From a virus (Duplodnaviria > Caudoviricetes): a stretch of DNA of 64,000 nucleotides. Positions within the stretch are counted from its first letter, which is position 1; every line of letters starts with the position of its first letter. Below the pieces are notes generated by a model. The model worked only from the letters and a program-made list of their open reading frames with translations. It was not told where the DNA came from and did not search any database. Positions 12,678 to 35,643 of the stretch are shown here, piece after piece. Location: the IMG/VR virus record IMGVR_UViG_3300036778_000062, positions 64,001-128,000 of that record. One strand, written 5' to 3'. A program made the position numbers and the translations under genes.

Positions 12678-15284
12678 CTATGGTACAGAAACGATCACGA
12701 CTCCGGAGCCGCCATTGCCGCCCGGTTGACCACCGCCGCCACCGCCGCCTGTATTCGCGGTGCCGGATACTCCCGGATTTGGATTCGCCTGCGCAGCGCC
12801 ACCGCCGCATGTCGCTCCGCCGGGGGTCGAACCCGCGCTCGTACCTGCACCGCCGCCACCCGCGTAGCAAACCGACGCGCCGGAAATACTGGACATCAAG
12901 CCGGCGCCGCCGCTACCCGCCGTTGTTGTGCTGGGAGCAGCTTGACCTGCGCCGCCAGCGCCACCACCACCACCGCCTTGAACAAAGCCCAAGAGGTTGT
13001 CGCCGCCCTTATTGCCTTGCCCGGCAGTGCCACTCGCGCCCGGTCCAGTAAAGCCGCCGCAAGATCCGCCACCAGACCCACCAACGTTTGGACCAATTCC
13101 AGCACCGCAACCTCCACCGCCTCCGATCGCAGTAAAGCCATTGAATGACGAGTTTGAACCGTTAAGGCCAACGGATCCGCTTGCGCCCGCGCCACCAGCG
13201 CCGACGACGACGGGATATGCCCCTGATGTGAGAACTGCCGAGCCGGGCAGCACGCCGCCAGCGCCACCGCCACCACCACCCGCGCCAGCGCCGCCCGCCA
13301 CGATCAGATAGTTGATCAGGCTTGCGCCGACTTGCTGATAGAACGTTCCGCTCGAATTGAAGACATAGATCGTCGGGCTCGTCAGCGGAGTCCAAGTGAT
13401 CCTGATGACGCCTTGCTTGGCATCGCCGCCGGGGCCTCCATTGTTGCCAGAACCGCCGCGTCCACCACCGCCACCGCCGCCACCATATCCAAGTGACGCG
13501 CCGCCAGCTGCACCGGGAAAAGATCCGGCTCCACCGCCACCACCGCCTCCACCGCCGCCGGTGCCAATTCCTGTTGCAAGATCGCTACCCATCGACCCGG
13601 CGCCGCCGTTGGTGCCGGCACCAAGACCGCCGCTTGCGCCGAAGCCAGCAAATCCACCACCGCCGCCGCCGCCGTTGCTGCCATCCGATCCATTCGAATT
13701 GTTGCCACCAGCGCCACCACCGGTGCCGGCCTGATTGTTGCCACCGCTGCCCCCGATCGCGGTGCCACTGACTTGCGTTTGCCCAGTAGAGCCGCCTCCA
13801 TTGCCGCCGCCACCGCTGCCGCCATTGGTGCCAACTGTATTGCCGCCAGCGGCACCAACCCCCAAAGGACCACCAGCGCCTCCGCCGCCGCCACCGCCTG
13901 CAGTGGTAAGGCCACCTGTGCCGCCAATGCCGCCGTTGAAATTTGCGGCAGCACCCGTGCCGCCCGTGCCGCCCGCACCCGCGCCACCGCCGCCGCCGCC
14001 ATTCGACGCACCAGCGATACCAGCGCCACCACCGTTCGCTGTGCATGCGCCCGTGAATGAAGTGCTTGTACCCGCCGTCCCGTTCGTAGCTATCGCACCA
14101 CCGCTGCCGCCCGTGCCGATGGTGAAAGCAACGCTCGTGCTTGGTGTCAGACTGACATTAGCCGACTTGCGGTATTCACCACCACCACCGCCGCCGCCCG
14201 ACGCCGCGCTATTGGTGCCGCCACCACCGCCACCACCGCCACCACCAATGCACTCAATCGAATTGTCGCTGTTGTTAAAGTTGAGCGGGACAGTCCAACT
14301 GCCCGACGAAGTCAGAAGAACGCTGACTTGCGCCGTATAGGCAACGATGACGACACCGGAGCCACCGTTGCCACCTGCTGCTCCTACGACTTGTTGAGAG
14401 CCACCACCTCCGCCGCCGCCGGTGTTTGCCGTTCCAGGCGATCCGGGCTGAGCCGTGCCGCTGATCGAGATGCCGCCTGCACCTCCACCACCTGTACCGC
14501 CCGCACCGTTCGTGCTTCCCGCATTGACACCGTTTTGTCCGCCGCCACCACCACCGCCGTAGGTGAGCGACGTCCCCGTAATGGATGATGCGCATCCATT
14601 ACCGCCGTTGCCCCCATTGCTGGTTGAAGACCCGGTACCACCATTGCTGCCAACTGCGTTGCAGCCGCCACCTCCGGACCCGCCTGTATCGGTGGCCGCG
14701 CCTTGATCGCCACCTTTGTGGCCAGCAGAACCAGCGCCACCACTGAGAGGGCCGCCACTCACCCAGCCGGCAGCACCGCCACCGCTCGCGCCGCCAAGGC
14801 CATTACCGAATGATCCTCCACCACCGCCGCCGATCGCGGACGCGACCCCGGCAATAGATGATGATGAACCGTTCGATCCCGCCACGCTGCTGGAAGAACC
14901 ACCCGCGCCACCACCACCAATAGTGACGCTGTAAGAGCCGGCAATAAGATTTGTCGATCCGGGGTTAACCTGTCCAGCACCACCACCACCACCAGCACCG
15001 ATGTTTGTCGCCCCGGCACCGCCACCACCACCACCGCCGACAACAATATAGTTGACGTTGCCCGAGCCGGTGCATGTCAACGTAGCGCTCGAATTGAAGA
15101 CATGAATGCGGGTCGCGCCGAAGGCGGAGATAGTGCCGCCCGTGCATGAGATATTTTGTGTGCTGCTGCTGAGTTGCGCCATCAGCATGGGTTGAAATGT
15201 GCCGGGCATATTGGCCTGCGCGGCGGACAGGAGCGCCAGCCAGGGCGCGACAACGAACGCGAGAACAGCTCTACGGAACGTCAT
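12678..15284 (-). CDS. Glycine-rich putative adhesin/tail fibre with three tandem Gly-rich domains and an N-terminal signal peptide
   Basis: Three modules from (H/Y)VFNSS or LTSSGSW through GGGG runs to G.GGSGVVIV/QGVIRI; N-terminus MTFRRAVLAFVVAPWLALLSAAQA. Confidence 0.75.
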   Translation of the reverse strand: MTFRRAVLAFVVAPWLALLSAAQANMPGTFQPMLMAQLSSSTQNISCTGGTISAFGATRIHVFNSSATLTCTGSGNVNYIVVGGGGGGGAGATNIGAGGGGGAGQVNPGSTNLIAGSYSVTIGGGGAGGSSSSVAGSNGSSSSIAGVASAIGGGGGGSFGNGLGGASGGGAAGWVSGGPLSGGAGSAGHKGGDQGAATDTGGSGGGGCNAVGSNGGTGSSTSNGGNGGNGCASSITGTSLTYGGGGGGGQNGVNAGSTNGAGGTGGGGAGGISISGTAQPGSPGTANTGGGGGGGSQQVVGAAGGNGGSGVVIVAYTAQVSVLLTSSGSWTVPLNFNNSDNSIECIGGGGGGGGGGTNSAASGGGGGGGEYRKSANVSLTPSTSVAFTIGTGGSGGAIATNGTAGTSTSFTGACTANGGGAGIAGASNGGGGGGAGAGGTGGTGAAANFNGGIGGTGGLTTAGGGGGGGAGGPLGVGAAGGNTVGTNGGSGGGGNGGGSTGQTQVSGTAIGGSGGNNQAGTGGGAGGNNSNGSDGSNGGGGGGGFAGFGASGGLGAGTNGGAGSMGSDLATGIGTGGGGGGGGGGAGSFPGAAGGASLGYGGGGGGGGRGGSGNNGGPGGDAKQGVIRITWTPLTSPTIYVFNSSGTFYQQVGASLINYLIVAGGAGAGGGGGGAGGVLPGSAVLTSGAYPVVVGAGGAGASGSVGLNGSNSSFNGFTAIGGGGGCGAGIGPNVGGSGGGSCGGFTGPGASGTAGQGNKGGDNLLGFVQGGGGGGAGGAGQAAPSTTTAGSGGAGLMSSISGASVCYAGGGGAGTSAGSTPGGATCGGGAAQANPNPGVSGTANTGGGGGGGQPGGNGGSGVVIVSVP

Positions 15285-15287
15285 GTA

Positions 15288-16583
15288 TCACTTCACATTC
15301 TGAAGGAGAGAGGCTGCGCAAAAGTTGACCGTGATGCAGGATCCTTCGAGTACGTCGACCGCACCAGCTATGGTCGACAGCGTCGGGGTAACGCCTCCGG
15401 GAAATTTCAACAGACTGTTCCAGACGGTCGAGCGCCCACCCGTGGAATCTTGAATAAACCTGATCTGGAATGATTTCCCGACCATAGGCGTGAAGTTCAT
15501 CGTGGTGATGTTGCCGGTCAGCGTGACAGCCGCGTTGATGAACGTCGTGGTGTCGATGCTGATGGTCGAACCAAAGGTGATGGTGGCTTCGGCCGAGTAG
15601 ATCACGCTCGCCGGCACGAGCACACTCGACGCGCCACTCTGATACTGCGATCCGGTTGCCACCGCAGCGGTCGCCATATCAGCGAAGGTTACAAGGCCGG
15701 CTGCGCTGAACGAGCTGTGAACTGTGAGGCCGCCGCCGCCAGCGCCGACATCAACCGTCCCGGTCGAACCTCCATTGCCGATAAGAATGATGCCGCTGCC
15801 CTTGGCATTGAGCGAAAGATTTTCATTAGTGGCCGTCGATGTCGTGTTGAGGCCCGTGCCGCTTCCAGCAGCGTTGCCGACGATTTGTAGGCCTGTGGCC
15901 TGATTGGTTCTGGAGCCGTCAACAGTGAGCACGGGATTGGTCGCGCCATTGGCGCCGACCGCGAGCGCGGTCGACGAGTTCGACTGGATGGCTGTCGGTC
16001 CCTTCACCGCGAGCACGTTGCCGCCGATCGTCGCGCCGCCAAGCGAGAGCGATCCGGAGAGCACCGCATTTACGCCGCCGATCGTTCCCGTGAATGTCGG
16101 GCCGGCAGTCATCGCGACGCTGCCAGTGCCGGAGATCGTGTATTCGTCGAGAACACCAGCGTTATCGAAGAGCACACGCGCGCTCGTGCCTCCGATGACG
16201 TCAGTGATGCCGACCGTCATAGACGCCGCAGTCGCGGTCAGCAGGTCGATTGTCGTGCCGTTCACCTGCGCAAAGACGCCGGAAGAAGTCATCCACAGAT
16301 CGCCATCTGCGGGCTGCGCGGGCGTCGTGCCTGGGGTTAGATTGAAACCGGCCGTCTGCGCGCCGGGCGGTGCCGTGACAAGCCGCCCGGTCATGATCCC
16401 GCCGGCGGTGTTCAGCGGGACGTAACCCAAATCATCCTGCTTGGACGCGAAATAGCTATTCCACTGCGCCGCGGTCGGCACCTGACCGTTCTGCAGGTTT
16501 GGCGAGGACCCCGCGATCGCTGGCAAGCCAGCAGCCATCGCTAGTCCGGACGCGAGCGCGACCGACTTCAATAACGTCTTCAT
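15288..16583 (-). CDS. Tail fibre/spike-like beta-rich protein with N-terminal signal peptide
   Basis: G/T/A-rich beta repeats, C-terminal QDSTGGR..W...KFPGG.TPTLST..GAVD fibre domain. Confidence 0.7.
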   Translation of the reverse strand: MKTLLKSVALASGLAMAAGLPAIAGSSPNLQNGQVPTAAQWNSYFASKQDDLGYVPLNTAGGIMTGRLVTAPPGAQTAGFNLTPGTTPAQPADGDLWMTSSGVFAQVNGTTIDLLTATAASMTVGITDVIGGTSARVLFDNAGVLDEYTISGTGSVAMTAGPTFTGTIGGVNAVLSGSLSLGGATIGGNVLAVKGPTAIQSNSSTALAVGANGATNPVLTVDGSRTNQATGLQIVGNAAGSGTGLNTTSTATNENLSLNAKGSGIILIGNGGSTGTVDVGAGGGGLTVHSSFSAAGLVTFADMATAAVATGSQYQSGASSVLVPASVIYSAEATITFGSTISIDTTTFINAAVTLTGNITTMNFTPMVGKSFQIRFIQDSTGGRSTVWNSLLKFPGGVTPTLSTIAGAVDVLEGSCITVNFCAASLLQNVK

Positions 16584-16596
16584 TTCTGATGATCCG

Positions 16597-17247
16597 TTAG
16601 AAGGAAGGCGTCTTCCAGGAACCGATGGTATCGGCGGTTAAGTCCTCGATGTCGTGGGACGCCTGCGCGGCCGCCCGCTCGATGGCGTCGATCTGCTGGC
16701 GCCGCTGCTGTTGATCGTCGAGGAAATGCTGGTCAGATGGAGAGCGATTCTGACGAATGGCCGCCATCACCTGATCGGGCTTGGTGGTTGCCTTGCTGAA
16801 CCATCCAAGCTTGTTCATGGCAGCCTGATAGGCATCATTTTCCACTTTTGCGAGGTCGTTCTCGCGCATGCCGAACAGGCGCCGCTTTCCGGCTGGCAAA
16901 ATCTTCGAAATCGCAATCTGCTCGGCATGGTAAAGCAGGCTCAATAAATTGAGCTTGGCGGCCGCAAGTGCCTGCTGCGGGTCTGGTGGATCGATCGATG
17001 GACTATCGTCGACGATCTCAAAATTTGCTTCGTCATTTTCGTCGATAGACTTCTCGATCGCGATGTGGGCGCGTGGCCGCGGATAAGCAATGTGACGCTG
17101 GAACGGGGCTAACTCGGAGTTCGCCTCATCCTGCTTTACGCGGCTCATGTGCGTGCGCCATGCCTTCAACTCAACTGCGTGAGACGCGGCCTTGCCAGCG
17201 AAGTCTTCAATGCCAACGATTTCCGAGAGCTTGATCTTATGCTTCAT
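16597..17247 (-). CDS. Tail fibre assembly-like protein
   Basis: Helical protein coupled downstream of the collar-fibre gene. Confidence 0.5.
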   Translation of the reverse strand: MKHKIKLSEIVGIEDFAGKAASHAVELKAWRTHMSRVKQDEANSELAPFQRHIAYPRPRAHIAIEKSIDENDEANFEIVDDSPSIDPPDPQQALAAAKLNLLSLLYHAEQIAISKILPAGKRRLFGMRENDLAKVENDAYQAAMNKLGWFSKATTKPDQVMAAIRQNRSPSDQHFLDDQQQRRQQIDAIERAAAQASHDIEDLTADTIGSWKTPSF

Positions 17248-18389
17248 AGCGCAAGGTTCCAAAACGCACCCACAGATCGCTCGACATTGTTGTGTGAGCC
17301 ATTTCCTGTATTCGTGGATGATACCGATCCAGAGACAGAGCCGCTGACGGTACCGGAGACGTTCGCGGTCCCCGAAAAGGTGCCGCTAACGCTCGCATTA
17401 CCTCCTAAGCCGAAGTTGCCCCCGCCGCCGACACCGCCCGAACCCTGCGTGGCACCGAGAATAACCGCACTGGTCGAACCAGAAATCGACCCGGAGCAAC
17501 CACCGGACATCGAGCCTGACATCGAACCCGACATCGAACCGGAGGAGTTAATGCCGGGGATTTGCGAGGCAGCGAGGGTTACAAGATTTCCGCCAAGGAT
17601 CGACCCGGGCGTGGTGGTGTTGCCGGAGACGACGGTGACGCCATTCAAAAGTGCAGTTACCCCGCCGCCCATCGTATCTACGCCAATGAGCCCGGTACCT
17701 TGAAGCGCCGGCGTCGTAAGTCGTCGGTTGGCTGCGAAATCAGCGAATGGATTTGCTCCTCGTGCGACCGGTGCTCCGGCGCTGGTTAGAAGAGGGCATT
17801 GCGAATTGGAGAATTGCAGCCAAACTGCGCAGAACAAGAAAAACGTTGAGGCGTTTGCAACGTTAGCGCCGGACGCGGCGTTGCCGACGGTCTGGCCGTT
17901 CGCGGTGACGAAGCCGCTTGGATTCAGGGTGGACGAAAACGATGGAACGGGCGTTCCGCTAACGATCTGCCCGGGCTTCGTGACCCAATTTGCTGCCGCT
18001 CCGCTTAGATCGTCCGGGTTCGTCAGGTTGTTGTCGACGGTTGACATCCATTCCTTGCCGAGCACAAGGCCCGAACGCAGCACCGCACCCTTCGGATATC
18101 CGCCAATCGCTGAAGCAAAATCGGCGTCATAGCTGTAGCCCATCCCAGCTTCAGCCCATTGCAGGGCCGCCGAAATCTGCTGGAAGATGCCGTTGAAGTC
18201 GGAGCCGAATGGCGGGACGCCGCCGGCAGCGATCGGATCGAAGTTGAGCGGCACCCATCCATCATGCAGCGAGGCCGCACCGTTCTGGATGCCGATTTGC
18301 GAGTCGACGGGAATCGGCCGGATGAATGCGGCGCTGGCGAATTGCGCCCACAGCACGGGAAACTTGCTGGGGATCGACGTGGAGAGCAT
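17244..18389 (-). CDS. Baseplate-anchored tail fibre with collar domain
   Basis: AIGGYPKGAVL...STVDNN..NPD anchor; P.GF..ANGQT collar; SGS repeats; HNNV. Confidence 0.8.
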   Translation of the reverse strand: MLSTSIPSKFPVLWAQFASAAFIRPIPVDSQIGIQNGAASLHDGWVPLNFDPIAAGGVPPFGSDFNGIFQQISAALQWAEAGMGYSYDADFASAIGGYPKGAVLRSGLVLGKEWMSTVDNNLTNPDDLSGAAANWVTKPGQIVSGTPVPSFSSTLNPSGFVTANGQTVGNAASGANVANASTFFLFCAVWLQFSNSQCPLLTSAGAPVARGANPFADFAANRRLTTPALQGTGLIGVDTMGGGVTALLNGVTVVSGNTTTPGSILGGNLVTLAASQIPGINSSGSMSGSMSGSMSGGCSGSISGSTSAVILGATQGSGGVGGGGNFGLGGNASVSGTFSGTANVSGTVSGSVSGSVSSTNTGNGSHNNVERSVGAFWNLAL

Positions 18390-18399: not shown

Positions 18400-19059
18400 T
18401 CAGAGAGGTGTCATGACAGCGACGTCCACGCCGGACGGCCGCGGCAGCACGCCGGACTGTTCGACGATCGCAAGTTCGAGCGGCGATAGGGCGAAATCGA
18501 ATTTTTGGACCATCGTCATATCGCGGTTGTCGACGACGTAGCAGTTGCCGCGTCCCGGAAAGAGGCTGCGCAGGATCTGGTTGATGGACTTGATCGAGCC
18601 GTCCGTGATGTTGAACAGCGCCTTGGCGAAGATCAGGATCCGGTAGGAGCTGTCCGCGAGCACGAAGTTGTTCGTCAGCGGCTGGCCTTGGAAGAACGGC
18701 GCTTGGCCGAACGGTTGCGAACCAGGTTGCGCCTCCTCCATGCCGAGATAGATATCGCTCTCTGGGACGCTGAGTGTGCGCGAGACGTTGACGATATCGC
18801 CCCAGATGTCGAGGCCATAGCCGACTGCGGTTGCAATGTTGAAAATATCGTCAAAGAACGCGGTGATGTTGGATGTCTGGTCGACGCACTGGAAGACGTT
18901 GTAGATTAGCTCGATGATGATCGGGCTGTTTGCGTATTGTGAGATAACCGTCTTCCAGAAGTCGAAATCCGGAATCGGTCCGATCGGCGAGACGCCGATG
19001 ATAAACTTGCCGATCGCATTGGATCCCGGTCGCGGCCGGTTAATATCCGGCCCGCTCAC
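18400..19059 (-). CDS. Baseplate wedge protein (DUF2612-like)
   Basis: SQYANSP, TAVGYGLDIWG.IV.VSR, LPRPSGV. Confidence 0.85.
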   Translation of the reverse strand: MSGPDINRPRPGSNAIGKFIIGVSPIGPIPDFDFWKTVISQYANSPIIIELIYNVFQCVDQTSNITAFFDDIFNIATAVGYGLDIWGDIVNVSRTLSVPESDIYLGMEEAQPGSQPFGQAPFFQGQPLTNNFVLADSSYRILIFAKALFNITDGSIKSINQILRSLFPGRGNCYVVDNRDMTMVQKFDFALSPLELAIVEQSGVLPRPSGVDVAVMTPL

Positions 19060-20477: not shown

Positions 20478-20478
20478 T

Positions 20479-20829
20479 TCAGAAATTCGCAGCCGCTGTG
20501 TTGCCGGCCTGATCAAGGATCTGGACCTGCCCGTGAACCTCGCGATTGACGATCGAGGTGATGAAGACGTTCGCAGCCTTGACGCCCGGCACTGTCAGAG
20601 CGGCAGCGCCGAACTTCGCTTTCATGAGCGAGATATTCGGAGGCTTGCCGAAAATCTGCTGGAAGTAGGGGATTCCCTGTGTCGTGTCGTACCAAAGCTC
20701 GGCCTGGAAGAGCTTGATTGCGCTGGCCGCATCCTGCGCTAGGGAATACGGATCGGACGCGACCGCAATATTGCCAGCAGCATCCTTCGTGAGGTCCCAG
20801 GTTTGCGGATTGAGCAGAAGCGTCTTCAT
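20479..20829 (-). CDS. Baseplate gp25/W-like protein
   Basis: WDL...GNIA, F.AELWYDTTQGIPY. Confidence 0.75.
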   Translation of the reverse strand: MKTLLLNPQTWDLTKDAAGNIAVASDPYSLAQDAASAIKLFQAELWYDTTQGIPYFQQIFGKPPNISLMKAKFGAAALTVPGVKAANVFITSIVNREVHGQVQILDQAGNTAAANF

Positions 20830-27682: not shown

Positions 27683-28402
27683 TCATGGCGATGGCGGGAA
27701 ATCGACGTTGTAGAGATCGATGGTCAAGGAGCTTGCGAACTCCTGCGAGACTGCCACGGTCGGATCGACCTGCAGATGGGCCTCTACAATCCATCGGTCC
27801 TCGTATTGAACTGCGGCCGTATTGAATGGCATCTGCCGCGGATCGTCTGCGTAGAGGGGTGATAGGCCGGTTCCCTCGAGATGTTCGACCGCGAACGGAT
27901 CTCGGAAGAGGGTCGATATCGTCTGTGCATTCTCGGCTGACGCCGGCCCGTGCACGTCGATCTGAACCACGACTTCCGTCGGCTGCATCACGATCGCCTG
28001 TCCGGCCGAGATAATCGTCGCGGCGACATCCTGCGCCGGAGTCACCGCGTAGACGCCGACACCGCCAGGCGTCCCCGAAATCTGCTCTGAGACGGTTGTG
28101 CCAATCGCGATGCCGACGCCGAAGACCGTCGCATCGATGTTCATGACGCCGCGGATGACGTCGGTGATTGTCATCTGATCGCCGTCGATCGAGCCCTCAA
28201 ACTCGGCATCGGCCATCGTGTCGAGATTGGTTCCGAGGCGTGGGCGGCGCAGCGGCCACATCACGATGAAGTCACCTTCTGGGGCGGGCACCCGATTGAC
28301 CTGTCCGACGACGATCTTGCCCGGCCGGAGCTGCGGTAGCATCGCTTTCAGCAGATCGCCAAGCGCAATGTTGATGCTGTCCTGGGTGATCGAAATGTTC
28401 AT
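27683..28402 (-). CDS. Neck/tail terminator protein with inserted beta domain
   Basis: GQVNRVP.P, QIDVHG, PLYADDP.Q, QYE.RW. Confidence 0.75.
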   Translation of the reverse strand: MNISITQDSINIALGDLLKAMLPQLRPGKIVVGQVNRVPAPEGDFIVMWPLRRPRLGTNLDTMADAEFEGSIDGDQMTITDVIRGVMNIDATVFGVGIAIGTTVSEQISGTPGGVGVYAVTPAQDVAATIISAGQAIVMQPTEVVVQIDVHGPASAENAQTISTLFRDPFAVEHLEGTGLSPLYADDPRQMPFNTAAVQYEDRWIVEAHLQVDPTVAVSQEFASSLTIDLYNVDFPPSP

Positions 28403-28740
28403 CGGTAGAAGAGGGCGTTCACCTTGCCGCCCGAGGTCTGCGAGATGAAGCGAAGCGCCGAGATCGTGCCCTCGTAGTTCAGCACCTGACCGACAGCCAG
28501 CGGCATGCCAACGGCGGCGGTCGGCGCAGTACGGTCATCACGGTAGCGAACGGCCTGGCCCTCTGCCGTAATGACGACCATGCTCGGTGTGCCCGCACAT
28601 GCAGCCGGGATTGTCAGCGGTGTCGCTGTATCGACCGCAACCTGCTGGTACCCGCAGGGTACCCGGCGGATACCGCTATCGGCGCGCGCGCAGCTCATCG
28701 CGAGCGCGATCGTCAGCGCCGCGGTCAATCCTCGAAGCAT
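28399..28740 (-). CDS. Small beta-sandwich-like protein with signal peptide, in the neck module
   Basis: MLRGLTAALTIALAMSCARA; EGQAVRYRDD.TAPTA.VG.PL. Confidence 0.65.
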   Translation of the reverse strand: MLRGLTAALTIALAMSCARADSGIRRVPCGYQQVAVDTATPLTIPAACAGTPSMVVITAEGQAVRYRDDRTAPTAAVGMPLAVGQVLNYEGTISALRFISQTSGGKVNALFYR

Positions 28741-28753: not shown

Positions 28754-29149
28754 TTACGATGGGTCTGGGATGTCGTCCTGCAGCACCACAGCAACCTTGC
28801 ACCAGTCCGCCCATTGCTCCACGGACGCCAGCACCAGCCACGTATTGCCCTCTGGAAGGGTGCCGTCAGGGAACACGACCAGATCGCCGCCCAGCTTCTT
28901 GATGCGGCTGATCGCAAGTGCGGCGCCGTTCAGATAGATGGCCTTCTGGGCTCCCTGAACATTGAGGGCGTCGAGCTGGCGGATATCGCCCGAGGTGATG
29001 GGCTGAACCTGTGCCTGCACCGGCGCCTTGTCGTAGGTCGGTACCTGCACATAGTTGACGAGCGTGTATCCGGTGCTGATGAACAGCGTGGCGGCAACGT
29101 TTGGGTTAACCGCACGCGTCACGCCGTTGGCTATCGCCCGAAGGTTCAT
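28754..29149 (-). CDS. Head-tail adaptor/closure protein
   Basis: MNL..IA...VNP, QVQP, GGDL..F, W.V....EQW.DW. Confidence 0.75.
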   Translation of the reverse strand: MNLRAIANGVTRAVNPNVAATLFISTGYTLVNYVQVPTYDKAPVQAQVQPITSGDIRQLDALNVQGAQKAIYLNGAALAISRIKKLGGDLVVFPDGTLPEGNTWLVLASVEQWADWCKVAVVLQDDIPDPS

Positions 29150-29154
29150 CGTGG

Positions 29155-29757
29155 CTACCGCGGCGCCAGGCAAGCCGTGACGACCAGGTTCGCCGTCGCA
29201 GTGGCGGTGCCGGTGAATTTCAGCGCGAGGCGGTCGCCAGCGGCAAGGGCCACGCTCGCTGCTGTTCCAACGAGCGCGCCGGCCTGAACCGTGTTGGCGG
29301 TGGCGTTAAGATTGAAGCCGGCGTTCGTATTGTTGGTCAGGAGAGCGGTGCCTGAGCCCGGCGCAGTGGTCCCGGTGTCCTTCTCGACCTGCATCGTCTC
29401 GGTGGCGCCGGCAGCCGTAGAATGCACCTCACTGACGCTGACGAGCTTGTAGGGCCTGGTTGCGACGAAGAAAGCCGCATTGGCCGGTGAGGCCAGGGTC
29501 CCCATTTGCGCGAAGGTGGTGCAGACCAGACCGTCGGAAGACTTCAGCGTCGTGAAGTTGCCGGGTGCTGGTGTGGTCCCCCCGATTGTCATGTCGTCGA
29601 TAGTACCGGGCGTCGCACCATTGCTTTTCGGCGGCGCGATCGGGAAAGCCAGGTCGCCGATGTTGGTGAAGAAGGTGGTGCTCGCAGCGCGCGCGGCGAT
29701 CGCAGGCGCGAGCAAGGCGGCAATGACGATCACAACTTTCGTTGTCACGGTTCGCAT
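29155..29757 (-). CDS. Beta-rich virion-module protein with signal peptide
   Basis: MRTVTTKVVIVIAALLAPAIAARA; IGGTTPAPG.FTTL fibre motif; AAGDRLAL jelly-roll-like end. Confidence 0.65.
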   Translation of the reverse strand: MRTVTTKVVIVIAALLAPAIAARAASTTFFTNIGDLAFPIAPPKSNGATPGTIDDMTIGGTTPAPGNFTTLKSSDGLVCTTFAQMGTLASPANAAFFVATRPYKLVSVSEVHSTAAGATETMQVEKDTGTTAPGSGTALLTNNTNAGFNLNATANTVQAGALVGTAASVALAAGDRLALKFTGTATATANLVVTACLAPR

Positions 29758-29774: not shown

Positions 29775-30215
29775 TCAGGATTTCACTTCGAACGAGACGG
29801 CGCGGATCATGTCACCGTGCTCGATGAGGGGCTTGTCGAAGCCCTTGCGCTTGACCGTCGATTCCGCCAGCGGCGGCGAATTCGTTTGCTGGATGCTCAT
29901 CTGCAGGTCGCTCGCGATCCCTTCGCCAACGCGTTGCAGGGTGAGGTCCTGATCGTAATCGGTCGCCTTCAGGTTCTCGGCGACCGCGACCGGCCACGTC
30001 GACTCCTTCTCCGCGATCATGTTGCGGAAGAAAGGCCGTGGCGGAATTTTGCTGGTTCCGAACTCGTTGGCGGCGGCGCGAACGGCGATGGGCTGACCGT
30101 CCGGCCCGGTTGCGTTCTCGAGGAAGCCGACGCGGACCGATCCTGGCCGCGAGAGTTGCTCCGCGATCTGACTGAGCGCCAGCGCGAACTTGTCGCCGCC
30201 CTTGATGGTCGCCAT
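29775..30215 (-). CDS. Neck/tail completion protein (HK97 gp10-like)
   Basis: NEFGT..IPPRPFFR, PPLAEST..RKGFDKPLI..G.M. Confidence 0.8.
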   Translation of the reverse strand: MATIKGGDKFALALSQIAEQLSRPGSVRVGFLENATGPDGQPIAVRAAANEFGTSKIPPRPFFRNMIAEKESTWPVAVAENLKATDYDQDLTLQRVGEGIASDLQMSIQQTNSPPLAESTVKRKGFDKPLIEHGDMIRAVSFEVKS

Positions 30216-30607: not shown

Positions 30608-30625
30608 GGGCTGGTTCTCCTCGAG

Positions 30626-31066: not shown

Positions 31067-31090
31067 AGCGCGCTCCTCGCAACGGAACAA

Positions 31091-31600: not shown

Positions 31601-31633
31601 CGTCAGGAACTCCTGGTTAAAATGAGAGCTGTG

Positions 31634-31661
31634 TTCGGCCGCGGATTTGACCGCGGCCGAA
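31634..31661 (-). terminator. Hairpin downstream of the major capsid gene
   Basis: ttcggccgcgg-N6-ccgcggccgaa. Confidence 0.55.
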
Positions 31662-31666
31662 AAACG

Positions 31667-32767
31667 TCAGATGCCAACCATCGACGAAAAGCCGATTGGC
31701 ATCCGGATGATGGCGCCAAAGGTGCCAGCCATCTTCTTCTGCTTGTAGGACGAGGCCGCGCGGATAATCGGAAACGCCTTCAACTTCTCGGTGAAGGAGC
31801 AATAGGCTGTCTTCTGCCCTTGGATCTTCTCCGCAATCAGCTGCATGAAATTTCCTGCAGGGACGCCCTGCGGGTTGTCGGGTGTCAAAGCGCCGTATTG
31901 AACCGCGGTCTGAATGCGGAGATTTGGGAAATTCTTTTTGAGGAGATCTTCCACATTGACGTTGAAGGAGTTGGTGAACGTCAGCGCCACCTCCGAACCG
32001 GGAGACATCGCGAGCACCATCGGCGTCCTTTTGTTGACGAGACCGATGTTGTTCTGGATCAGATTCTCATAGACGGCGACGACGTCGTTGTAGACCTCGT
32101 TCGCTGTCGCGTTCGGCGCGCCACTATCGGTAAACCAGGACGTTCCGCCATTCACCTTCACAGACGGTGCAAGCGGAGCGCCAAGGTTCGGATCATTGAA
32201 AAGACCGAAGTTTTCCAGCCCCGCAACGCCGTAGAAGTACGATAGGTTGCTGAACCTATTGAGGCCGTCGGCCGCAGCAGCCTCGAGACCACTAATCCAG
32301 TTTACACGGCCGAGGCCCGCGCGTTCGATTTCGAGGTCGCCGTATTCGAGCATCACCTGGAAATTGTACGATTGCCGCTGGGGCCAGTTGGTATTGAGTG
32401 AGGCTCGGCCATTCTCATTGAAATCGCCATACGTCGAGACCTCGACGGTATGTTCGACGGTCGGGAACATCGCCGTCGATGTGGTCCAATTGCCCTTACG
32501 CTCCTCACCTACGATTTCCGCTCCTTCAGTCGGAGCGAACAGGATATCGAAAATATCCGGATCGATGAACGTGGTGAGCCAGGATGGAATGCCGGTGTTC
32601 GGATCCGTCTGCAAAGCGGGTTGAGCATCCATCGCGAGATAGTTCGTCGCGATTGCATCGGTCGCATAGCAGCGAACCGTGTCCAGTAGCGAAACGCCTT
32701 TGGATTCGAAGAACTCTTTCTCGGAGGCAAAGGCCTGCATCGCCTGCTCAAGAGTACCATTGTACAT
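31667..32767 (-). CDS. Major capsid protein (DUF2184-like)
   Basis: LAMDAQP, GIP..LTTFIDP, E.RKG.W, N..YFYGV.GL..FG..NDPNL, KQK..AGT.GAII. Confidence 0.9.
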   Translation of the reverse strand: MYNGTLEQAMQAFASEKEFFESKGVSLLDTVRCYATDAIATNYLAMDAQPALQTDPNTGIPSWLTTFIDPDIFDILFAPTEGAEIVGEERKGNWTTSTAMFPTVEHTVEVSTYGDFNENGRASLNTNWPQRQSYNFQVMLEYGDLEIERAGLGRVNWISGLEAAAADGLNRFSNLSYFYGVAGLENFGLFNDPNLGAPLAPSVKVNGGTSWFTDSGAPNATANEVYNDVVAVYENLIQNNIGLVNKRTPMVLAMSPGSEVALTFTNSFNVNVEDLLKKNFPNLRIQTAVQYGALTPDNPQGVPAGNFMQLIAEKIQGQKTAYCSFTEKLKAFPIIRAASSYKQKKMAGTFGAIIRMPIGFSSMVGI

Positions 32768-32837
32768 GCTAATGCTCCTTCGGCCGAGGAAGGCTCGGCT
32801 CAAGTTACGTTTGGTTTGAAGGGAAGGGCGCTCGGGA

Positions 32838-33800
32838 TCAGCCGAGCGGGTGATCGCTGATCTTGACGAGCTCGGTGGACAGGCCGGGGCTCATCGCGGA
32901 CCACTTGGTTTCGACATCGAGCGCGGTATTGATCGCCTGACCGGGCGTTATCGACTGCGTCAGGTTGACGATGTAGGTACCAGCGGCGCCGGTGCCGGTG
33001 CCGAGGTCTGTAATCACGGTGCCATCACTGATCCCGCTGCCGTTGGCCGGCTGACCGACTGCGAACGTGCCTGCTACGGTGCCGCCGATTGTCATGAGAC
33101 CATAGCTGCCGGTCATAGCTTCCGTGTCGATATCCTGCTCGGAGAGATTGAGCGCGTAGCGGCCGGCACCGCGCAGCGCTTCGCCATCCTGCAGGGGCAG
33201 CACCTGGTTAACGATGTGGGCGCCCGTCGGAACGCCAGAGCCCGCGACCACGGTACCGTTGTAGAGCGTACCGGTGACAGCCGAAGCGGTCAGGATGTTC
33301 CCCTCGATCGAACCAGTGAAGGAGCTGGTTTCGGCAGCGATCGTGGAGGAGGTCGATGTACCGCCGGAATCCGGAGCGCCAGCCGGCCCAAAGCGGACCG
33401 AGCCATCCTGGAAGTTGGCGTAAGCCTTCATGCCGATCAGCGCCTGGTTAGAGCCGGCGTTCTTTACGACAAAGTCGCCGCCGTTCATCAGCGTGATTGG
33501 CTGGCCGGCCGGCACGAGCATGCTGGATTCTTGCAGATACTGCGTAAGCATGCCCTGCTGTTCGCGGTGGACGAACCCGGTCACGGGCCCGGAGCCGAAG
33601 TTGTTCACGACGGCCGGACCGCCGACATCGTCTTCGTGCTGGTCGGCTGCCCAAGCAAACCGCGCAACTCGTACGCCGAAGTCGCCACAGACGAAGGCGC
33701 CGGCGCCGGCGATCACAGAAAAGCGCGGGTTGGCGCTTGCGAAATCACCTTCTACGCCGATCGCCGGCTGAACGGTGACCCTGGTTTGAAAGCCGCCCAT
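32838..33800 (-). CDS. Head decoration/cement protein with inserted beta domains
   Basis: FQ..V..QPA.GVEGDFASANP, GFVHREQQ, ETKW, ELVKIS. Confidence 0.8.
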   Translation of the reverse strand: MGGFQTRVTVQPAIGVEGDFASANPRFSVIAGAGAFVCGDFGVRVARFAWAADQHEDDVGGPAVVNNFGSGPVTGFVHREQQGMLTQYLQESSMLVPAGQPITLMNGGDFVVKNAGSNQALIGMKAYANFQDGSVRFGPAGAPDSGGTSTSSTIAAETSSFTGSIEGNILTASAVTGTLYNGTVVAGSGVPTGAHIVNQVLPLQDGEALRGAGRYALNLSEQDIDTEAMTGSYGLMTIGGTVAGTFAVGQPANGSGISDGTVITDLGTGTGAAGTYIVNLTQSITPGQAINTALDVETKWSAMSPGLSTELVKISDHPLG

Positions 33801-33889
33801 TGAGTGTTCCTTTCAGGGGTAAAACGGGGTTGTCGCCGGCCGCGGTTCGCCGCCGGCGGTGTTCGACGTTTGGATGATGGGGAAACCTG

Positions 33890-35356
33890 TTAGGCGCTGA
33901 CCTTGATGCTGGCCGCGTGTGGGAAGCGCGCGGCCAGGCTCTTGGCGACCGCGGCGTCAGTCGCGATCGGCGGCCTCGGCGGTGGGTTGCCGTTGCCCGG
34001 CTGCTTATGGGAACGCAACACTGCCTTGGCGGCTGGAATGCTGTCGATCTTGTCGGCATCTTCGACACCGAGCACACCGAGGGCAGCCTGATAGACGCTG
34101 ATCGCGCTATCGAAGGCGCCCTTAAGAGTGCCGACATACGGCCTGACTTCCTCGCGGGCGTCCACGGCGGCCTGCACGCGATCGCGCTCGGCTTTGACCG
34201 CGGCGCTGATCGCCTGGTCCATGGCCTTCTTGTCGACCATGTCCTTGGTCTTCTCGGCAACAGCCTTCTCGACATCGCCCGCCATCTTCTCCTCGGCCTC
34301 CTTCGCCTTGCGCTTCTTCTCTTCGTCGTCTTCCTCGTCATCCTCATCGGCGGCGCCTCGCGGACCGGCCTTGAGCATGTCGCAGGCCTTCAGGTAGTCA
34401 TCCTCGCCGAGCTTGCCCTTGAGGAAAGCGTGGATGTCGGACTCGCCGCCCTCGGCGTCCATCGTCTCTTCCGGCATATCCTCGACGTCGATCTCGTCAT
34501 CACCTTCCGCGATCGGGGCCTTTTCCAAGGCATCGATCAGGCCGGCGACGTCCTCGATCGAGGCGTCAGCCGCAAGCTTGCCCTTGGTCGCGGTCTTGAT
34601 GCCGGCAATGATTGTCGGTTTCTGCGTGGCGAAATTCTTGGCCGTCAGCTTCGCCAGGATCGTTCGAAGATCGACCTTGGCGTCAAGAGCCAGGCGCGGA
34701 GCGAGGTGGAGGGCGATGACGCTGCGGACAGCGGCACCGGTACGCGTCATCTTAACTTTCGCCATCTTGATGGTCTCCATGGTGTCGCCGACCACAACAT
34801 CGGGTCCGGCTCGTCCTTCTTTCACAAGCGCAACGTGATTGCCGACAATGTCTCGCATGACGCCGTCGTATTCCTCGCCGTCGGGCGTGTGGCCCGGCGT
34901 CATGTCAGCGCGATAGCGGTACGCGCTCGACAATTCCTTTTTCAGCTCATCCTCGATATCGCCGATGCCTTCGCCGGCCCAGACGACCAGCGAATTGTCG
35001 AGGTAGGGCGCGTCGAACTCGGAGTCGGTACCGAGGGACCCGATCACGAGCTCAGGCCTGTGGTCGCGCGCATCGACCGGGACATGGCGGGAGAGCAGCG
35101 GCAGGTTATTGAAAGTCTCTGCCGCTTTCTTCAATTCGTCCGGATGCCGCCAGAGCTTATAAAGCTTGCGAGGATCAAGCCCCAGCTTTTCGAACTCAGG
35201 AATCTCGACGCCGAGATATTCGCAGACGTTTGCCTTCGAGATGTGCGTCTTCGCAACATGCAGGCGACCGTCGGCGTCATAGTTGCGCACTGACGCGCGG
35301 TCGAAGGCGAGGATCTCGCGCGCATCGAATGCGGGGTGCGGCGATACGCCCGACAT
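33890..35356 (-). CDS. Prohead protease/scaffold (DUF2213-like)
   Basis: R..DADG.L, ELS..Y, NHVALV..GRAG; acidic scaffold C-terminus. Confidence 0.9.
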   Translation of the reverse strand: MSGVSPHPAFDAREILAFDRASVRNYDADGRLHVAKTHISKANVCEYLGVEIPEFEKLGLDPRKLYKLWRHPDELKKAAETFNNLPLLSRHVPVDARDHRPELVIGSLGTDSEFDAPYLDNSLVVWAGEGIGDIEDELKKELSSAYRYRADMTPGHTPDGEEYDGVMRDIVGNHVALVKEGRAGPDVVVGDTMETIKMAKVKMTRTGAAVRSVIALHLAPRLALDAKVDLRTILAKLTAKNFATQKPTIIAGIKTATKGKLAADASIEDVAGLIDALEKAPIAEGDDEIDVEDMPEETMDAEGGESDIHAFLKGKLGEDDYLKACDMLKAGPRGAADEDDEEDDEEKKRKAKEAEEKMAGDVEKAVAEKTKDMVDKKAMDQAISAAVKAERDRVQAAVDAREEVRPYVGTLKGAFDSAISVYQAALGVLGVEDADKIDSIPAAKAVLRSHKQPGNGNPPPRPPIATDAAVAKSLAARFPHAASIKVSA

Positions 35357-35370
35357 AGTTATCCTCGCGG

Positions 35371-35643
35371 CTATTTCGCTGGCTTGGTGGTGGTCTTTTC
35401 GTCGAGAGTCGATTTATCTGCGGCGGCCTTATCGGCCGCCGCTTTGGCGTCTATGGCGTTGAGTTGCTGCTGAAGGATCGTCAGCACGGGCGCGGACGTC
35501 TTGTAGGGCAGCTCCATCAGGCCCTGGCCGATGATCTGCAGCTCCGCGCGCGTCACGTCGAGTTTGAGATGATCCGTTGGGGTCTGTGCAATCGCACTGC
35601 CTGCCCCGACGAACATAAGTAATGCCACAAGCAAGATTCTCAT
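35371..35643 (-). CDS. Small protein with signal peptide in the head module
   Basis: MRILLVALLMFVGAGSAIA|Q; L.ELPYK..AP. Confidence 0.65.
   Translation of the reverse strand: MRILLVALLMFVGAGSAIAQTPTDHLKLDVTRAELQIIGQGLMELPYKTSAPVLTILQQQLNAIDAKAAADKAAADKSTLDEKTTTKPAK

What the first reader, a model, noticed from the sequence alone, without database searches (positions are those of the whole stretch)
12678..35643. Multiple virion-module genes carry classical cleavable signal peptides
Seen: five co-oriented genes embedded in the head, neck and tail operon start with a basic n-region, hydrophobic h-region and AxA cleavage site. They are 12678-15284 (..LLSAAQA), 15288-16583 (..GLPAIA), 28399-28740 (..MSCARA), 29155-29757 (..AIAARA) and 35371-35643 (..GSAIA), plus 11327-11509 in the lysis cassette. 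Two look like tail fibres or adhesins and two like beta-rich decorations. Known: tailed-phage virions assemble in the cytoplasm and structural proteins normally lack signal peptides. Inference: a set of fibres and decorations is exported, folded in the periplasm (several contain Cys pairs) and attached to particles only at or after lysis. Alternatively they act as secreted receptor decoys or adhesins. Either would be an unusual morphogenesis pathway.
Basis: partly seen in the sequence, partly recalled or inferred. Interest (0 to 1): 0.78.

Follow-up and report, generated by a model that had tools for sequence, protein, structure and literature searches.

The report
Signal peptides on phage fibre-like proteins
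A temperate contractile-tailed phage, and many of its uncultured relatives, put classic export signals on proteins that look like tail fibres, adhesins and decorations, which suggests these parts pass through the periplasm, something not described for tailed phages in the literature I could search.

Summary
All six ORFs exist as stated, on the minus strand, tightly packed in the late operon of a temperate myovirus, and each starts with an n/h/c signal-peptide-like segment.

Comparative evidence shows these are real, selected Sec/signal-peptidase-I signals:
- In the g431 family (2116 clusters), 126 of 129 N-terminal modules follow a hypervariable peptide of about 22 aa, with Ala at -3 (111/122) and at -1 (115/122).
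- Rare SP-less relatives of g431, g200 and g113 start at or within a few residues of the predicted mature N-terminus and occupy the same gene slots.
- SP-bearing g113 and g200 relatives carry a Cys pair; SP-less ones mostly do not. This trend was not significant after phylogenetic control.

The proteins are virion-type:
- g431 is a modular fibre in the baseplate/fibre slot.
- g868 is a glycine-rich adhesin-like partner.
- g200 has a cement/fibre-tip jelly-roll.
- g113 is a small jelly-roll among the neck genes.
- g90 (variable island) and g60 (lysis cassette) are probably not virion parts.

Export is well supported (about 0.85-0.9). Attachment to particles at lysis is inferred only (about 0.45). 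An envelope or decoy role is the main rival. I found no precedent in eight literature searches.

The parts
15288..16583 (-). g431: signal peptide (residues 1-24), conserved N-terminal module (G/Q-SSPNL..GQVPTAAQWNSYF), repeat stem and a C-terminal tip shared with annotated tail fibres. Cys416 and Cys422 lie near the C-terminus.
   Evidence: tip homology to the Caulobacter phage S2B and Bradyrhizobium phage BDU-MI-1 tail fibres; 24 viral loci; the gene lies directly after or inside the baseplate genes in 18; 2116 clusters; 126/129 with SP; cleavage-site statistics.
12678..15284 (-). g868: signal peptide (1-24) followed by three glycine-rich domains (39% Gly) and 10 Cys in spaced pairs. It is the adhesin-like partner gene of g431, starting 3 nt downstream.
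   Evidence: PF21722 Gly_rich_2, 3 stretches, 3.2e-32; phrog_2295; P0185 and P0191 share the SP plus the NMPGT start; GC3 0.57, foreign composition; an SP-bearing Gly-rich gene follows the SP fibre in L087, L091, L092, L094.
29155..29757 (-). g200: signal peptide (1-24), conserved N-terminal strand motif (T-x-F-F-T-x-x-G-D-L-x-F-P) and IGxTTP motif, and a C-terminal TNF/C1q-like jelly-roll. Cys79 and Cys196. It lies between the Neck1 gene and the phrog_1912 gene.
   Evidence: KHP40 cement protein Z 9.4, GP4 capsid chain Z 9.0, phage 7-7-1 fibre tip Z 8.6.
28399..28740 (-). g113: signal peptide (1-20) followed by a 93-aa jelly-roll/cupin-like domain with the conserved pair Cys29/Cys48. It lies between the phrog_1912 gene and the neck terminator, and its stop overlaps the terminator's start by 4 nt.
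   Evidence: (pLDDT 90).
35371..35643 (-). g90: signal peptide (1-19) followed by a 71-aa helical, Cys-free protein. It sits in the variable island between the MuF-like minor head gene and the prohead protease, and is probably an accessory exported protein rather than a virion part.
   Evidence: (island of 48 bp to 2.3 kb in relatives; relatives L102-L104, L001 and L009 also bear an SP).
11327..11509 (-). g60: signal peptide (1-19) followed by a 41-aa basic peptide (net +6). It lies between the GH25 endolysin and the class-3 lipase, so it is a lysis-cassette component, not a virion part.
17244..18389 (-). SP-less tail fibre (N-terminal domain phrog_12796), followed by p221 (16597-17262). These are the conventional cytoplasmic fibre genes just upstream of g431.
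27683..28402 (-). Neck/tail terminator (PF23961), the downstream neighbour of g113.
28754..29173 (-). Conserved phrog_1912 neck-region protein, used as the anchor for synteny. It is flanked by g200 and g113.
29775..30215 (-). Neck1/tail-completion protein (phrog_222), the upstream neighbour of g200.
11511..12278 (-). GH25 endolysin. It appears soluble, with no SAR-like N-terminus at the likely start.

Best explanation
The six N-termini are genuine Sec-type signal peptides cleaved by signal peptidase I.

Four of the genes are virion-type modules of a temperate myovirus lineage from soil-type diderm hosts (the nearest genome relative is a Bradyrhizobium prophage). These are the g431 fibre, its glycine-rich partner g868, the g200 short fibre or decoration with a trimeric-type jelly-roll, and the small jelly-roll g113 in the neck cluster.

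Proposed mechanism:
1. The genes are co-transcribed with the late operon.
2. The proteins are exported to the periplasm and their signal peptides are removed. This exposes a conserved N-terminal docking motif.
3. Their paired cysteines are oxidised in the periplasm.
4. The proteins meet the cytoplasmically assembled particle only when holin and endolysin abolish the compartment boundary. They then attach as accessory fibres or decorations.

g90 and g60 are also exported, but they act as an accessory protein and a lysis-cassette protein.

Shown here (computationally): the gene anatomy, family-wide conservation of signal-peptide features and cleavage site, SP-less homologues that start at or within a few residues of the cleavage point in the same slots, and the fibre/decoration identity.

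Inferred: actual export, disulfide formation and attachment to virions.
For: (1) Canonical and selected signal peptides.
- g431 family: -3 is Ala in 111/122, -1 is Ala in 115/122 and +1 is Gln in 119/122. Median SP length is 22 aa and n-region charge about +1.9. Pairwise identity is 28% in the SP against 66% in the first 40 mature residues.
- 126/129 N-terminal modules are preceded by an SP.
- g113 family: -1 is Ala in 41/41 and -3 is Ala or Val in 41/41.

(2) SP-less relatives begin at or within a few residues of the predicted mature N-terminus and sit in the same slot.
- g113: L014, L016, L017 and P0045-P0056.
- g200: L014, L017.
- g431: P0325 and P0330, with P0325 lying behind baseplate wedge and DUF4376 genes.
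- A function shared by cytoplasmic and periplasmic versions must be exerted after the compartments mix.

(3) Cys pairs go with the SP: g113 44/45 against 2/14, and g200 88/95 against 5/25. Cys counts in all mature proteins are even.

(4) Virion-type identity.
- The g431 tip is homologous to annotated tail fibres.
- In 18 of 24 viral loci the g431 relative lies directly after or inside the baseplate/fibre genes.
- Its Atlas neighbours are all viral fibre clusters.
- The top structural matches of g200 are phage cement proteins and a fibre tip, Z 8.6-9.4, with 53 BFVD hits.

(5) Not typical morons.
- There are 1-17 nt gaps or overlaps with the neighbouring genes.
- Promoter- and terminator-like sites are no more frequent than chance.
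- GC3 and codon usage of g113, g200, g431 and g60 match the late genes.

(6) Partners match in export status. The SP fibre is followed by an SP Gly-rich protein here and in L087, L091, L092 and L094. In the cultured phages S2B and BDU-MI-1, both the fibre and the Gly-rich neighbour lack a convincing SP (the heuristic flagged the S2B fibre, which I judged a false positive).

(7) The mature proteins have no further hydrophobic segment, so they should be soluble.
Against: - There is no direct evidence that any of these proteins is in a virion. No cultured phage carries the g431 N-module, g200 or g113 families, so no proteome or cryo-EM data exist.
- The SP/Cys association is not significant after phylogenetic control: only 4 supported independent contrasts, with Cys changing in the same direction in about 1.7 of them and in the opposite direction in essentially none.
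- Disulfides in virions can also form after release, so Cys pairs do not require export.
- The neck slots are empty in most distant relatives, and in L009-L011 they hold unrelated large SP proteins. This is insertion-hot-spot behaviour typical of accessory cargo.
- g868 has foreign composition.
- The phage is temperate, with a CI-like HTH plus S24 repressor, so lysogenic conversion is possible.
- The phage also has a conventional SP-less fibre (17244-18389).
- SP prediction used my own heuristic, not SignalP.
Confidence: 0.45

Rival explanations
1. The proteins are exported but are not virion parts. They would be paralogues of fibres or decorations that gained signal peptides and act in the envelope of the infected cell or on its debris. 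Possible roles are masking or binding the receptor or nascent surface polysaccharide from the periplasmic side, excluding superinfecting phages, or being released at lysis as soluble decoys that keep progeny from adsorbing to debris (functionally like T5 Llp or Cor).
For: - The signal-peptide evidence is the same as for the main explanation.
- g431 and g868 sit next to a conventional SP-less fibre, as receptor-blocking genes sit next to receptor-binding genes in T5-like phages (own knowledge).
- The slots are insertion hot spots with variable SP cargo.
- About half of Gly_rich_2 proteins are secreted or surface proteins of bacteria.
- Soluble release at lysis is also a function open to both SP-less and SP-bearing versions.
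Against: - No lipobox is conserved (g113's Cys17 is not conserved), and nothing suggests a route across the outer membrane.
- The N-terminal motifs just after the cleavage site are strongly conserved while the C-termini vary. That pattern is typical of a docking end on a particle, not of a decoy.
- In L091, L092, L095 and L096 the SP fibre gene lies between core baseplate genes.
- The g431 family is almost uniformly SP-bearing over about 1000 clusters, so it is not an occasional derivative of a cytoplasmic fibre.
Confidence: 0.3
2. They are classical morons, meaning lysogenic-conversion genes (adhesins or surface and periplasmic factors). They would be expressed from the prophage for the benefit of the lysogen and merely lodged in the late operon.
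For: - The phage is temperate.
- The genes show presence/absence polymorphism among relatives.
- g868 and the opposite-strand ORF 35809-36276 have foreign composition.
- Precedents are lambda lom and bor and HK97 gp15 within tail modules (own knowledge).
Against: - There is no room for, and no signal of, separate promoters or terminators.
- The composition of g113, g200, g431 and g60 matches the late genes.
- SP-less homologues occupy the same slots.
- The folds and modules are shared with virion proteins.
Confidence: 0.12
3. The hydrophobic N-termini are not export signals. Either the true starts lie downstream, or the segments are uncleaved tethers or assembly elements of cytoplasmic structural proteins.
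For: - SignalP was not run.
- g431's h-region is Ala/Gly-rich and only weakly hydrophobic (hmax 2.0).
- g113 and g431 contain an internal Met within the segment.
Against: - n/h/c features and AxA are conserved across hundreds of divergent homologues, without conserved internal starts.
- Shine-Dalgarno sequences lie in front of the upstream ATGs.
- AlphaFold places residues 3-18 of g113 as a detached helix of lower confidence.
- SP-less homologues lack the whole segment rather than part of it.
Confidence: 0.05

Closest known systems
Sec-exported phage lysis proteins (signal-peptide endolysin Lys44 of phage fOg44, SAR endolysins such as P1 Lyz, o-spanin lipoproteins)
   Same: They are late-operon proteins of tailed phages, made with N-terminal export signals, accumulated outside the cytoplasm during morphogenesis, and acting only at lysis (PMC6116005).
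   Different: Those are enzymes or membrane-fusion proteins of the lysis cassette. Here the signals sit on fibre-, adhesin- and decoration-type modules in the neck and baseplate/fibre gene clusters. The conserved AxA cleavage site argues against SAR-type anchors.
Morons and receptor-blocking genes inside virion modules (lambda lom and bor, HK97 gp15, T5 llp, phi80/N15 cor)
   Same: They are exported or membrane proteins encoded among tail genes of (mostly temperate) phages, often beside the receptor-binding gene, with presence/absence polymorphism (own knowledge).
   Different: Those have their own transcription signals, often foreign composition, lipoboxes or beta-barrels, and no homology to virion proteins. 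Here the genes are tightly coupled, compositionally native (except g868), lack a lipobox, and share folds, modules and slots with SP-less virion-type homologues.
Filamentous-phage coat proteins (M13 g3p, g8p)
   Same: They are virion proteins synthesised as Sec preproteins with cleavable signal peptides, with disulfides formed in the periplasm (PMC8310372 listed; own knowledge).
   Different: Inoviruses assemble at the membrane without lysis, and their coat proteins keep a membrane anchor. Here the particle is a head-tail myovirus assembled in the cytoplasm, and the mature proteins have no anchor.
T-even long-tail-fibre plus gp38-type glycine-rich adhesin pair
   Same: A fibre gene is followed by a glycine-rich adhesin-like gene. 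The same pairing is seen in Caulobacter phage S2B and Bradyrhizobium phage BDU-MI-1 (resemblance to gp38 from own knowledge).
   Different: Those pairs are cytoplasmic and lack signal peptides. Homology of g868 to gp38 was not tested, and the Pfam hit of the BDU-MI-1 neighbour is below threshold.
Phage cement/decoration proteins and fibre-tip jelly-rolls (KHP40 cement protein 7dou, Pam1 7eel chain H, GP4 capsid chain 8h89_J, phage 7-7-1 fibre tip 9rkv)
   Same: The fold of the g200 C-terminal domain: Z 9.4, 8.6, 9.0 and 8.6, with 112-132 residues aligned.
   Different: Sequence identity is only 8-12%. None of those proteins is known to carry a signal peptide. The trimeric state of g200 was not tested.

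Membership tests
Sec-type (SPase I) signal peptide | Positively charged n-region, an uncharged hydrophobic h-region of about 7-15 residues, and a total length of about 18-30 residues | tested here: met
   All six pass. In the g431 family the median length is 22 and the net charge of the first 8 residues is +1.9.
Sec-type (SPase I) signal peptide | Small neutral residues at -3 and -1 (AxA rule), conserved across homologues while the rest of the peptide diverges | tested here: met
   g431 family: -3 Ala 111/122 and -1 Ala 115/122. g113 family: -1 Ala 41/41. Identity is 28% in the SP against 66% in the mature part.
Sec-type (SPase I) signal peptide | Positive score from a trained predictor (SignalP/DeepSig), and experimental cleavage | not testable with these tools
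   No such predictor and no proteome data were available.
Lipoprotein (SPase II) signal peptide | Lipobox with an invariant Cys at +1 | tested here: not met
   Only g113 has a lipobox-like AMSC, and that Cys is absent in most homologues, which end in AxA|D.
Tat signal peptide | Conserved twin-arginine motif (S/T-R-R-x-F-L-K) | tested here: not met
   g868 has T-F-R-R-A-V-L, but its close homologue P0191 has R-N at that place. The other five have no RR.
SAR (signal-anchor-release) domain | Weakly hydrophobic N-terminal TMD that is not cleaved | tested here: not met
   g431's own h-region is Ala/Gly-rich, but the family has a nearly invariant AxA|Q site.
Moron (independently transcribed accessory gene) | Own promoter and terminator flanking the gene | tested here: inconclusive
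   Gaps are 1-17 nt or the genes overlap. There was 1 promoter-like site against 2.5 expected and 12 terminator-like sites against 10.2, none flanking the genes. The consensus scans are crude for an alphaproteobacterial-type host.
Moron (independently transcribed accessory gene) | Base composition differing from neighbouring phage genes | tested here: not met
   g113, g200, g431 and g60 have GC3 0.73-0.78 against 0.75 +/- 0.04 for other late genes. This feature is met only by g868 (0.57) and the + strand ORF 35809-36276 (0.58).
Moron (independently transcribed accessory gene) | Present or absent between otherwise syntenic relatives | tested here: met
   The neck slots are empty in most distant relatives. 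The island holding g90 ranges from 48 bp to 2.3 kb.
Tail fibre / receptor-binding protein | Encoded at the distal end of the baseplate cluster, with a conserved N-terminal part and a variable C-terminal part | tested here: met
   g431: 18 of 24 viral loci place the gene directly after or inside the baseplate/fibre genes. The conserved module is followed by C-terminal parts giving ORFs of about 110-1365 aa, some cut by contig ends.
Tail fibre / receptor-binding protein | Homology to proven or annotated fibre domains | tested here: met
   g431 residues about 300-430 match the tail fibre proteins of Caulobacter phage S2B (E 5e-6) and Bradyrhizobium phage BDU-MI-1 (E 2e-7), and minor tail proteins. 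These are annotations, not experiments.
Tail fibre / receptor-binding protein | Physical presence on the virion and trimeric assembly | not testable with these tools
   There is no cultured carrier of the family. Oligomer prediction was not run.
Phage cement/decoration protein | Trimeric jelly-roll fold like the KHP40/Pam1 cement proteins | tested here: inconclusive
   The fold matches at Z 8.6-9.4 and Foldseek E 1.6e-3. Trimerisation and capsid binding were not tested, and the same fold also serves as a fibre tip.

The most novel reading that the evidence does not exclude
A widespread lineage of tailed phages of diderm soil bacteria builds part of its host-recognition and decoration apparatus in a different compartment from the particle. 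Fibres, their glycine-rich adhesins and neck or head decorations would be Sec-exported, signal-peptide-cleaved and disulfide-bonded in the periplasm. They would then dock through their newly exposed N-termini onto cytoplasmically assembled virions only during lysis. That would be a two-compartment morphogenesis pathway for Caudoviricetes.
Probability: 0.4. Interest if true: 0.9.

Novelty: new variant of a known kind. Interest (0 to 1): 0.72.

Why it matters
Textbook morphogenesis of tailed phages is entirely cytoplasmic. This finding identifies large, uncharacterised protein families that have the architecture and gene position of fibres and decorations yet carry conserved cleavable export signals. 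The g431 N-module has about 2100 clusters at 50% identity, g200 about 490 proteins and g113 about 56.

If they join the virion, this is a new assembly route. It would explain how environmental phages obtain disulfide-stabilised appendages. It would also matter for host-range prediction, for phage engineering (fibres that must be exported to fold), and for virion proteomics and annotation pipelines, which discard SP-bearing proteins as non-structural.

If they do not join the virion, they form a large new class of fibre-derived periplasmic or released factors such as receptor maskers or decoys.

Either outcome can be tested directly with one inducible Bradyrhizobium prophage.

Tried and rejected
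- Megablast of the 25-kb module against 50,697 phage genomes found no match.
- tblastn of g868 and g200 found no match, and mature g113 gave one weak hit at E 1e-2. No cultured carrier exists, so no proteomic precedent is available.
- The search for related loci with g868 found no relatives in viral contigs.
- NCBIfam found no family for any of the six proteins or their neighbours.
- Foldseek of g113 against the PDB gave only weak jelly-roll/cupin matches (Ena3A at E 9e-3). With VIA-align the best match was the PM2 spike P1 at Z 7.7, within the range of common arrangements. No specific assignment is possible.
- The complex prediction of mature g113 with its two conserved neighbours (phrog_1912 protein and neck terminator) gave no verdict (score 0.00, controls not run). 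It says nothing either way.
- The phylogenetically controlled test of the SP/Cys association in g200 had too few independent contrasts to reach significance. The raw Fisher tests (p 1e-9 and 1e-12) overstate the evidence because the SP-bearing members are largely clades.
- Rejected ideas: a lipoprotein reading of g113 (the Cys is not conserved); a Tat reading of g868 (RR not conserved); downstream alternative starts giving cytoplasmic isoforms (the internal Met is not conserved); and the eCIS 'N-terminal signal peptides' found in the literature, which are cargo-loading tags rather than Sec signals.
- Eight literature searches found no report of Sec signal peptides on tailed-phage fibres or decorations. 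The library lacks most subscription journals, so absence is not proof.

Full report
**What is there**

The finding's six ORFs all exist on the minus strand at the stated coordinates, and their N-termini read as described. They lie inside the late region of a phage. PHROGs and Pfam identify, in order:
- terminase (39738-41171)
- portal (37093-39741)
- a MuF-like minor head protein
- prohead protease (33890-35356)
- a DUF2184-type major capsid protein (31667-32803)
- head-tail connector genes
- Neck1 (29775-30215)
- a conserved phrog_1912 protein (28754-29173)
- the neck terminator PF23961 (27683-28402)
- sheath, tube, chaperone and tape measure
- baseplate hub and wedges
- a 381-aa tail fibre (17244-18389)
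- a lysis cassette with a GH25 endolysin and a class-3 lipase

A CI-like repressor (HTH plus peptidase S24) at 58820-59710 marks the phage as temperate. The window is part of a 140,645-base IMG/VR virus record, so no host chromosome is available. The nearest genomic relative is a prophage of Bradyrhizobium sp. LjRoot220, with 73% identity for the anchor protein.

**Is it more than chance?**

I wrote a simple heuristic. It requires a positively charged n-region, an uncharged stretch whose best 8-residue Kyte-Doolittle mean is at least 1.9, and the (-3,-1) rule.
- It flags all six ORFs at their annotated starts.
- Over the whole 140-kb record, convincing calls at annotated starts are otherwise rare.
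- In the head-neck-tail modules of 66 distant relatives, only 1.6% of ORFs are flagged even when alternative starts are allowed. In the nine close relatives the figure is 7.6% (odds ratio 5.1, p 1.6e-5).
- Against the 1.6% background, 6 of 36 late genes has a binomial P of about 2e-5, and 4 of 36 under the stricter threshold about 3e-3.

g113, g200 and g90 have good Shine-Dalgarno sequences in front of the upstream ATG. All six genes abut or overlap their neighbours.

**Are the segments real signal peptides?**

SignalP was not available, so the strongest evidence is comparative.

The first 120 residues of g431 find 2116 cluster representatives (966 at E <= 1e-10) among 1.84 billion proteins.
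- Among the best 150, 129 have the module at their N-terminus, and 126 of those are preceded by a signal peptide.
- When aligned on the conserved start of the mature part (Q-S-S-P-N/G-L), position -3 is Ala in 111/122, -1 is Ala in 115/122, -2 is bulky, and +1 is Gln in 119/122.
- The peptide has a median length of 22 residues and a net n-region charge of +1.9.
- Sequence identity is 28% within the peptide and 66% in the next 40 residues.

The g113 family behaves the same way. It has -1 Ala in 41/41 and -3 Ala or Val in 41/41, followed by an almost invariant D-S-G-I-R-R-V-P-C-G-Y-Q-Q.

This pattern, with features conserved and sequence free up to an AxA site, is the signature of signal peptidase I substrates.
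- The lipobox-like AMSC of g113 is not conserved.
- The RR of g868 is not conserved.
- None of the mature proteins has a further hydrophobic segment.

**Relatives without the extension**

The most informative result is that each of three families also has members without the extension. These start at or within a few residues of the predicted mature N-terminus and occupy the same gene slot.
- g113-like proteins of 91-108 aa lie between the phrog_1912 gene and the terminator in L014, L016 and L017. They begin within a few residues of the V-P-L-G-Y/F-Q-Q motif.
- g200-like proteins in L014 and L017 begin M-S-G-T-T, followed by the F-S-S-x-x-G-D-I-x-F-P motif. In the window protein the same motif follows the AxA site.
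- The SP-less g431 relatives P0325 and P0330 begin G-S-N/T-P-G-L, and P0325 lies behind baseplate-wedge and DUF4376 genes.

The extension is therefore a detachable N-terminal add-on whose boundary coincides with the predicted cleavage site. Whatever these proteins do can be done by versions made in either compartment.

**Cysteines**
- SP-bearing g113 relatives have the conserved pair C29/C48 in 44 of 45 cases. SP-less ones have fewer than two Cys in 12 of 14.
- In the g200 family, 88 of 95 members with a hydrophobic N-terminus have two or more Cys. Of the 25 without one, 20 have fewer than two.
- In the window, the mature proteins have 10, 2, 2, 2, 0 and 0 Cys, all even numbers.

These counts are inflated by relatedness. 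A tree of the g200 C-terminal domain needs 8 changes of SP state and 10 of Cys state. It yields only four supported independent contrasts. Cys changes in the same direction in about 1.7 of them and in the opposite direction in essentially none, which is not significant. I treat the association as suggestive, not demonstrated.

**What the proteins are**

g431 has the architecture of a fibre.
- It has a conserved N-terminal module, a repeat region (residues 55-117 recur up to 13 times in relatives) and a variable C-terminus.
- Its last 100 or so residues match annotated tail fibres of Caulobacter phage S2B and Bradyrhizobium phage BDU-MI-1, and minor tail proteins of actinophages.
- In 18 of 24 viral contigs, its relatives lie directly after homologues of this phage's hub, wedge and fibre genes. 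In L091, L092, L095 and L096 they lie between two baseplate genes.
- Its nearest ESM Atlas clusters are all viral fibre clusters. These are leads only.

g868 starts 3 nt after g431 and has three Gly_rich_2 domains (39% Gly).
- An SP-bearing, glycine-rich gene also follows the SP fibre in L087, L091, L092 and L094.
- In S2B and BDU-MI-1, both the fibre and its glycine-rich neighbour lack a convincing SP (the heuristic flagged the S2B fibre, which I judged a false positive).
- Putative partners therefore share their export status.

g200 (AlphaFold pLDDT 79) has a C-terminal jelly-roll.
- Its best structural matches are virion proteins: the KHP40 cement protein (Z 9.4), a Ralstonia phage GP4 capsid chain (Z 9.0), the Agrobacterium phage 7-7-1 fibre tip (Z 8.6) and the Pam1 cement protein (Z 8.6). 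TNF/C1q-type trimers follow.
- There are 53 BFVD matches at E <= 1e-3, including collagen-like fibres and Mtd_N proteins.

g113 (pLDDT 90) is a detached N-terminal helix followed by a small jelly-roll/cupin-like domain without a specific match.

g90 lies in an island between the MuF-like gene and the protease. This island ranges from 48 bp to 2.3 kb among relatives and carries assorted cargo. The g90 relatives there also bear signal peptides.

g60 is a signal peptide followed by a 41-residue basic peptide, and it lies between the endolysin and the lipase.

**Morons or operon members?**
- The genes leave no room for their own promoters or terminators, and consensus scans find none above chance.
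- GC3 and codon usage of g113, g200, g431 and g60 are those of the late genes.
- g868 (GC3 0.57) and an opposite-strand ORF at 35809-36276 (GC3 0.58) look foreign.
- On the other hand, the neck slots are empty in most distant relatives, and in L009-L011 they hold unrelated large SP proteins. These positions therefore do behave as insertion hot spots.

**Mechanism**

I consider export and cleavage well supported, at roughly 0.85-0.9.

For the function, the decisive observation is that SP-less and SP-bearing versions share slot, domain and N-terminal motif. A common function must then be exerted where cytoplasmic and periplasmic contents meet, which is at or after lysis. Two readings fit.
- Attachment to the released or releasing particle (my best explanation, 0.45). 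This is favoured by the fibre-like modularity, the strongly conserved motif exposed by cleavage, the gene positions inside baseplate clusters, and the matched export status of fibre and adhesin.
- Action as soluble or envelope-located factors such as receptor maskers or decoys (0.30).

Classical lysogenic-conversion morons (0.12) and non-export (0.05) are less likely. Nothing here shows virion association directly.

**Comparison with what is known**

Known Sec-exported late proteins of tailed phages are lysis proteins: SP and SAR endolysins and o-spanins (PMC6116005).

Known exported proteins inside virion modules are morons or receptor blockers (own knowledge).

Virion proteins made as Sec preproteins are known from filamentous phages (PMC8310372).

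Eight full-text searches found no report of Sec signal peptides on fibres or decorations of tailed phages. The library lacks most subscription journals, so this is not proof of absence.

**Verdict**

I rate the finding as a new variant of known kinds (exported phage proteins, and tail fibres). There is about a 0.4 chance that it reflects a genuinely new two-compartment morphogenesis route.

The scan had noted the same stretch before, in another reading of the same genome (e1-5824679). That note gave only a title and did not enter my evidence.

Noticed in passing
window 35809-36276 (+): An opposite-strand ORF of 155 aa sits in the island between the MuF-like gene and g90. It has a signal peptide (…AVFA|DPIR), 6 Cys, and foreign composition (GC 0.53, GC3 0.58, low codon adaptation). 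It looks like a classical moron encoding a secreted Cys-rich protein. The overlapping minus-strand ORF 35860-36171 looks spurious. No family hit in Pfam, PHROGs or NCBIfam.
   Followed up: partly
window 46785-47147 (+): A small ORF (120 aa from the second Met) with a signal peptide (…AQVEA|REQ) and many Cys (C-x2-C-x-C motifs), lying outside the late module. No family hit.
   Followed up: partly
window 8907-12278 (-): The lysis cassette holds a GH25 endolysin, g60 (SP plus a 41-aa basic peptide, net +6), a class-3 lipase, a 313-aa multi-TM protein with a long Ala-rich extracytoplasmic part, and two small membrane proteins. I saw no lipobox o-spanin. g60 might act like a cationic outer-membrane-disrupting peptide. 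Not tested.
   Followed up: partly
window 12250-12666 (-): An unlisted 138-aa gene lies between g868 and the endolysin, starting 11 nt after the g868 stop. It has a poly-Pro linker and hits phrog_25252 (unknown function, E 1.9e-10). It has no signal peptide and could be a fibre-associated chaperone.
   Followed up: partly
window 27683-28402, 25930-27675, 32838-33800, 19056-20516 (-): The neck terminator, sheath, a minor head protein and the baseplate wedge J-like protein all contain a stretch of about 55-75 aa matching the same PHROGs (phrog_38233 and phrog_21413). One small beta domain appears to be inserted in four structural proteins.
   Followed up: no
L009:10474-14261, L010:10447-13169: In these relatives, the slot between the phrog_1912 gene and the terminator holds other, unrelated large SP-bearing proteins (560, 464, 198 and 709 aa) instead of a g113 homologue.
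   Followed up: no
L107:3482-4911 (Caulobacter phage S2B), L108:3068-4983 (Bradyrhizobium phage BDU-MI-1): In both cultured phages, the tail fibre that shares g431's tip domain is followed directly by a small (177-198 aa) glycine-rich protein without a signal peptide. This suggests a conserved fibre plus Gly-rich partner pair. The Pfam Gly_rich_2 hit of the BDU-MI-1 protein is below threshold (E 0.008).
   Followed up: partly
L001:2348-2725, L102:2631-2996, L103:2519-2923: The variable island between the MuF-like gene and the protease often begins with a small protein carrying an H-W-C-P-x-C…H motif (zinc-ribbon-like). The window lacks a recognisable copy.
   Followed up: no
window 41616-42425 (+): A radical SAM protein (PF04055, E 3.9e-10) is encoded divergently, next to the terminase.
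   Followed up: no
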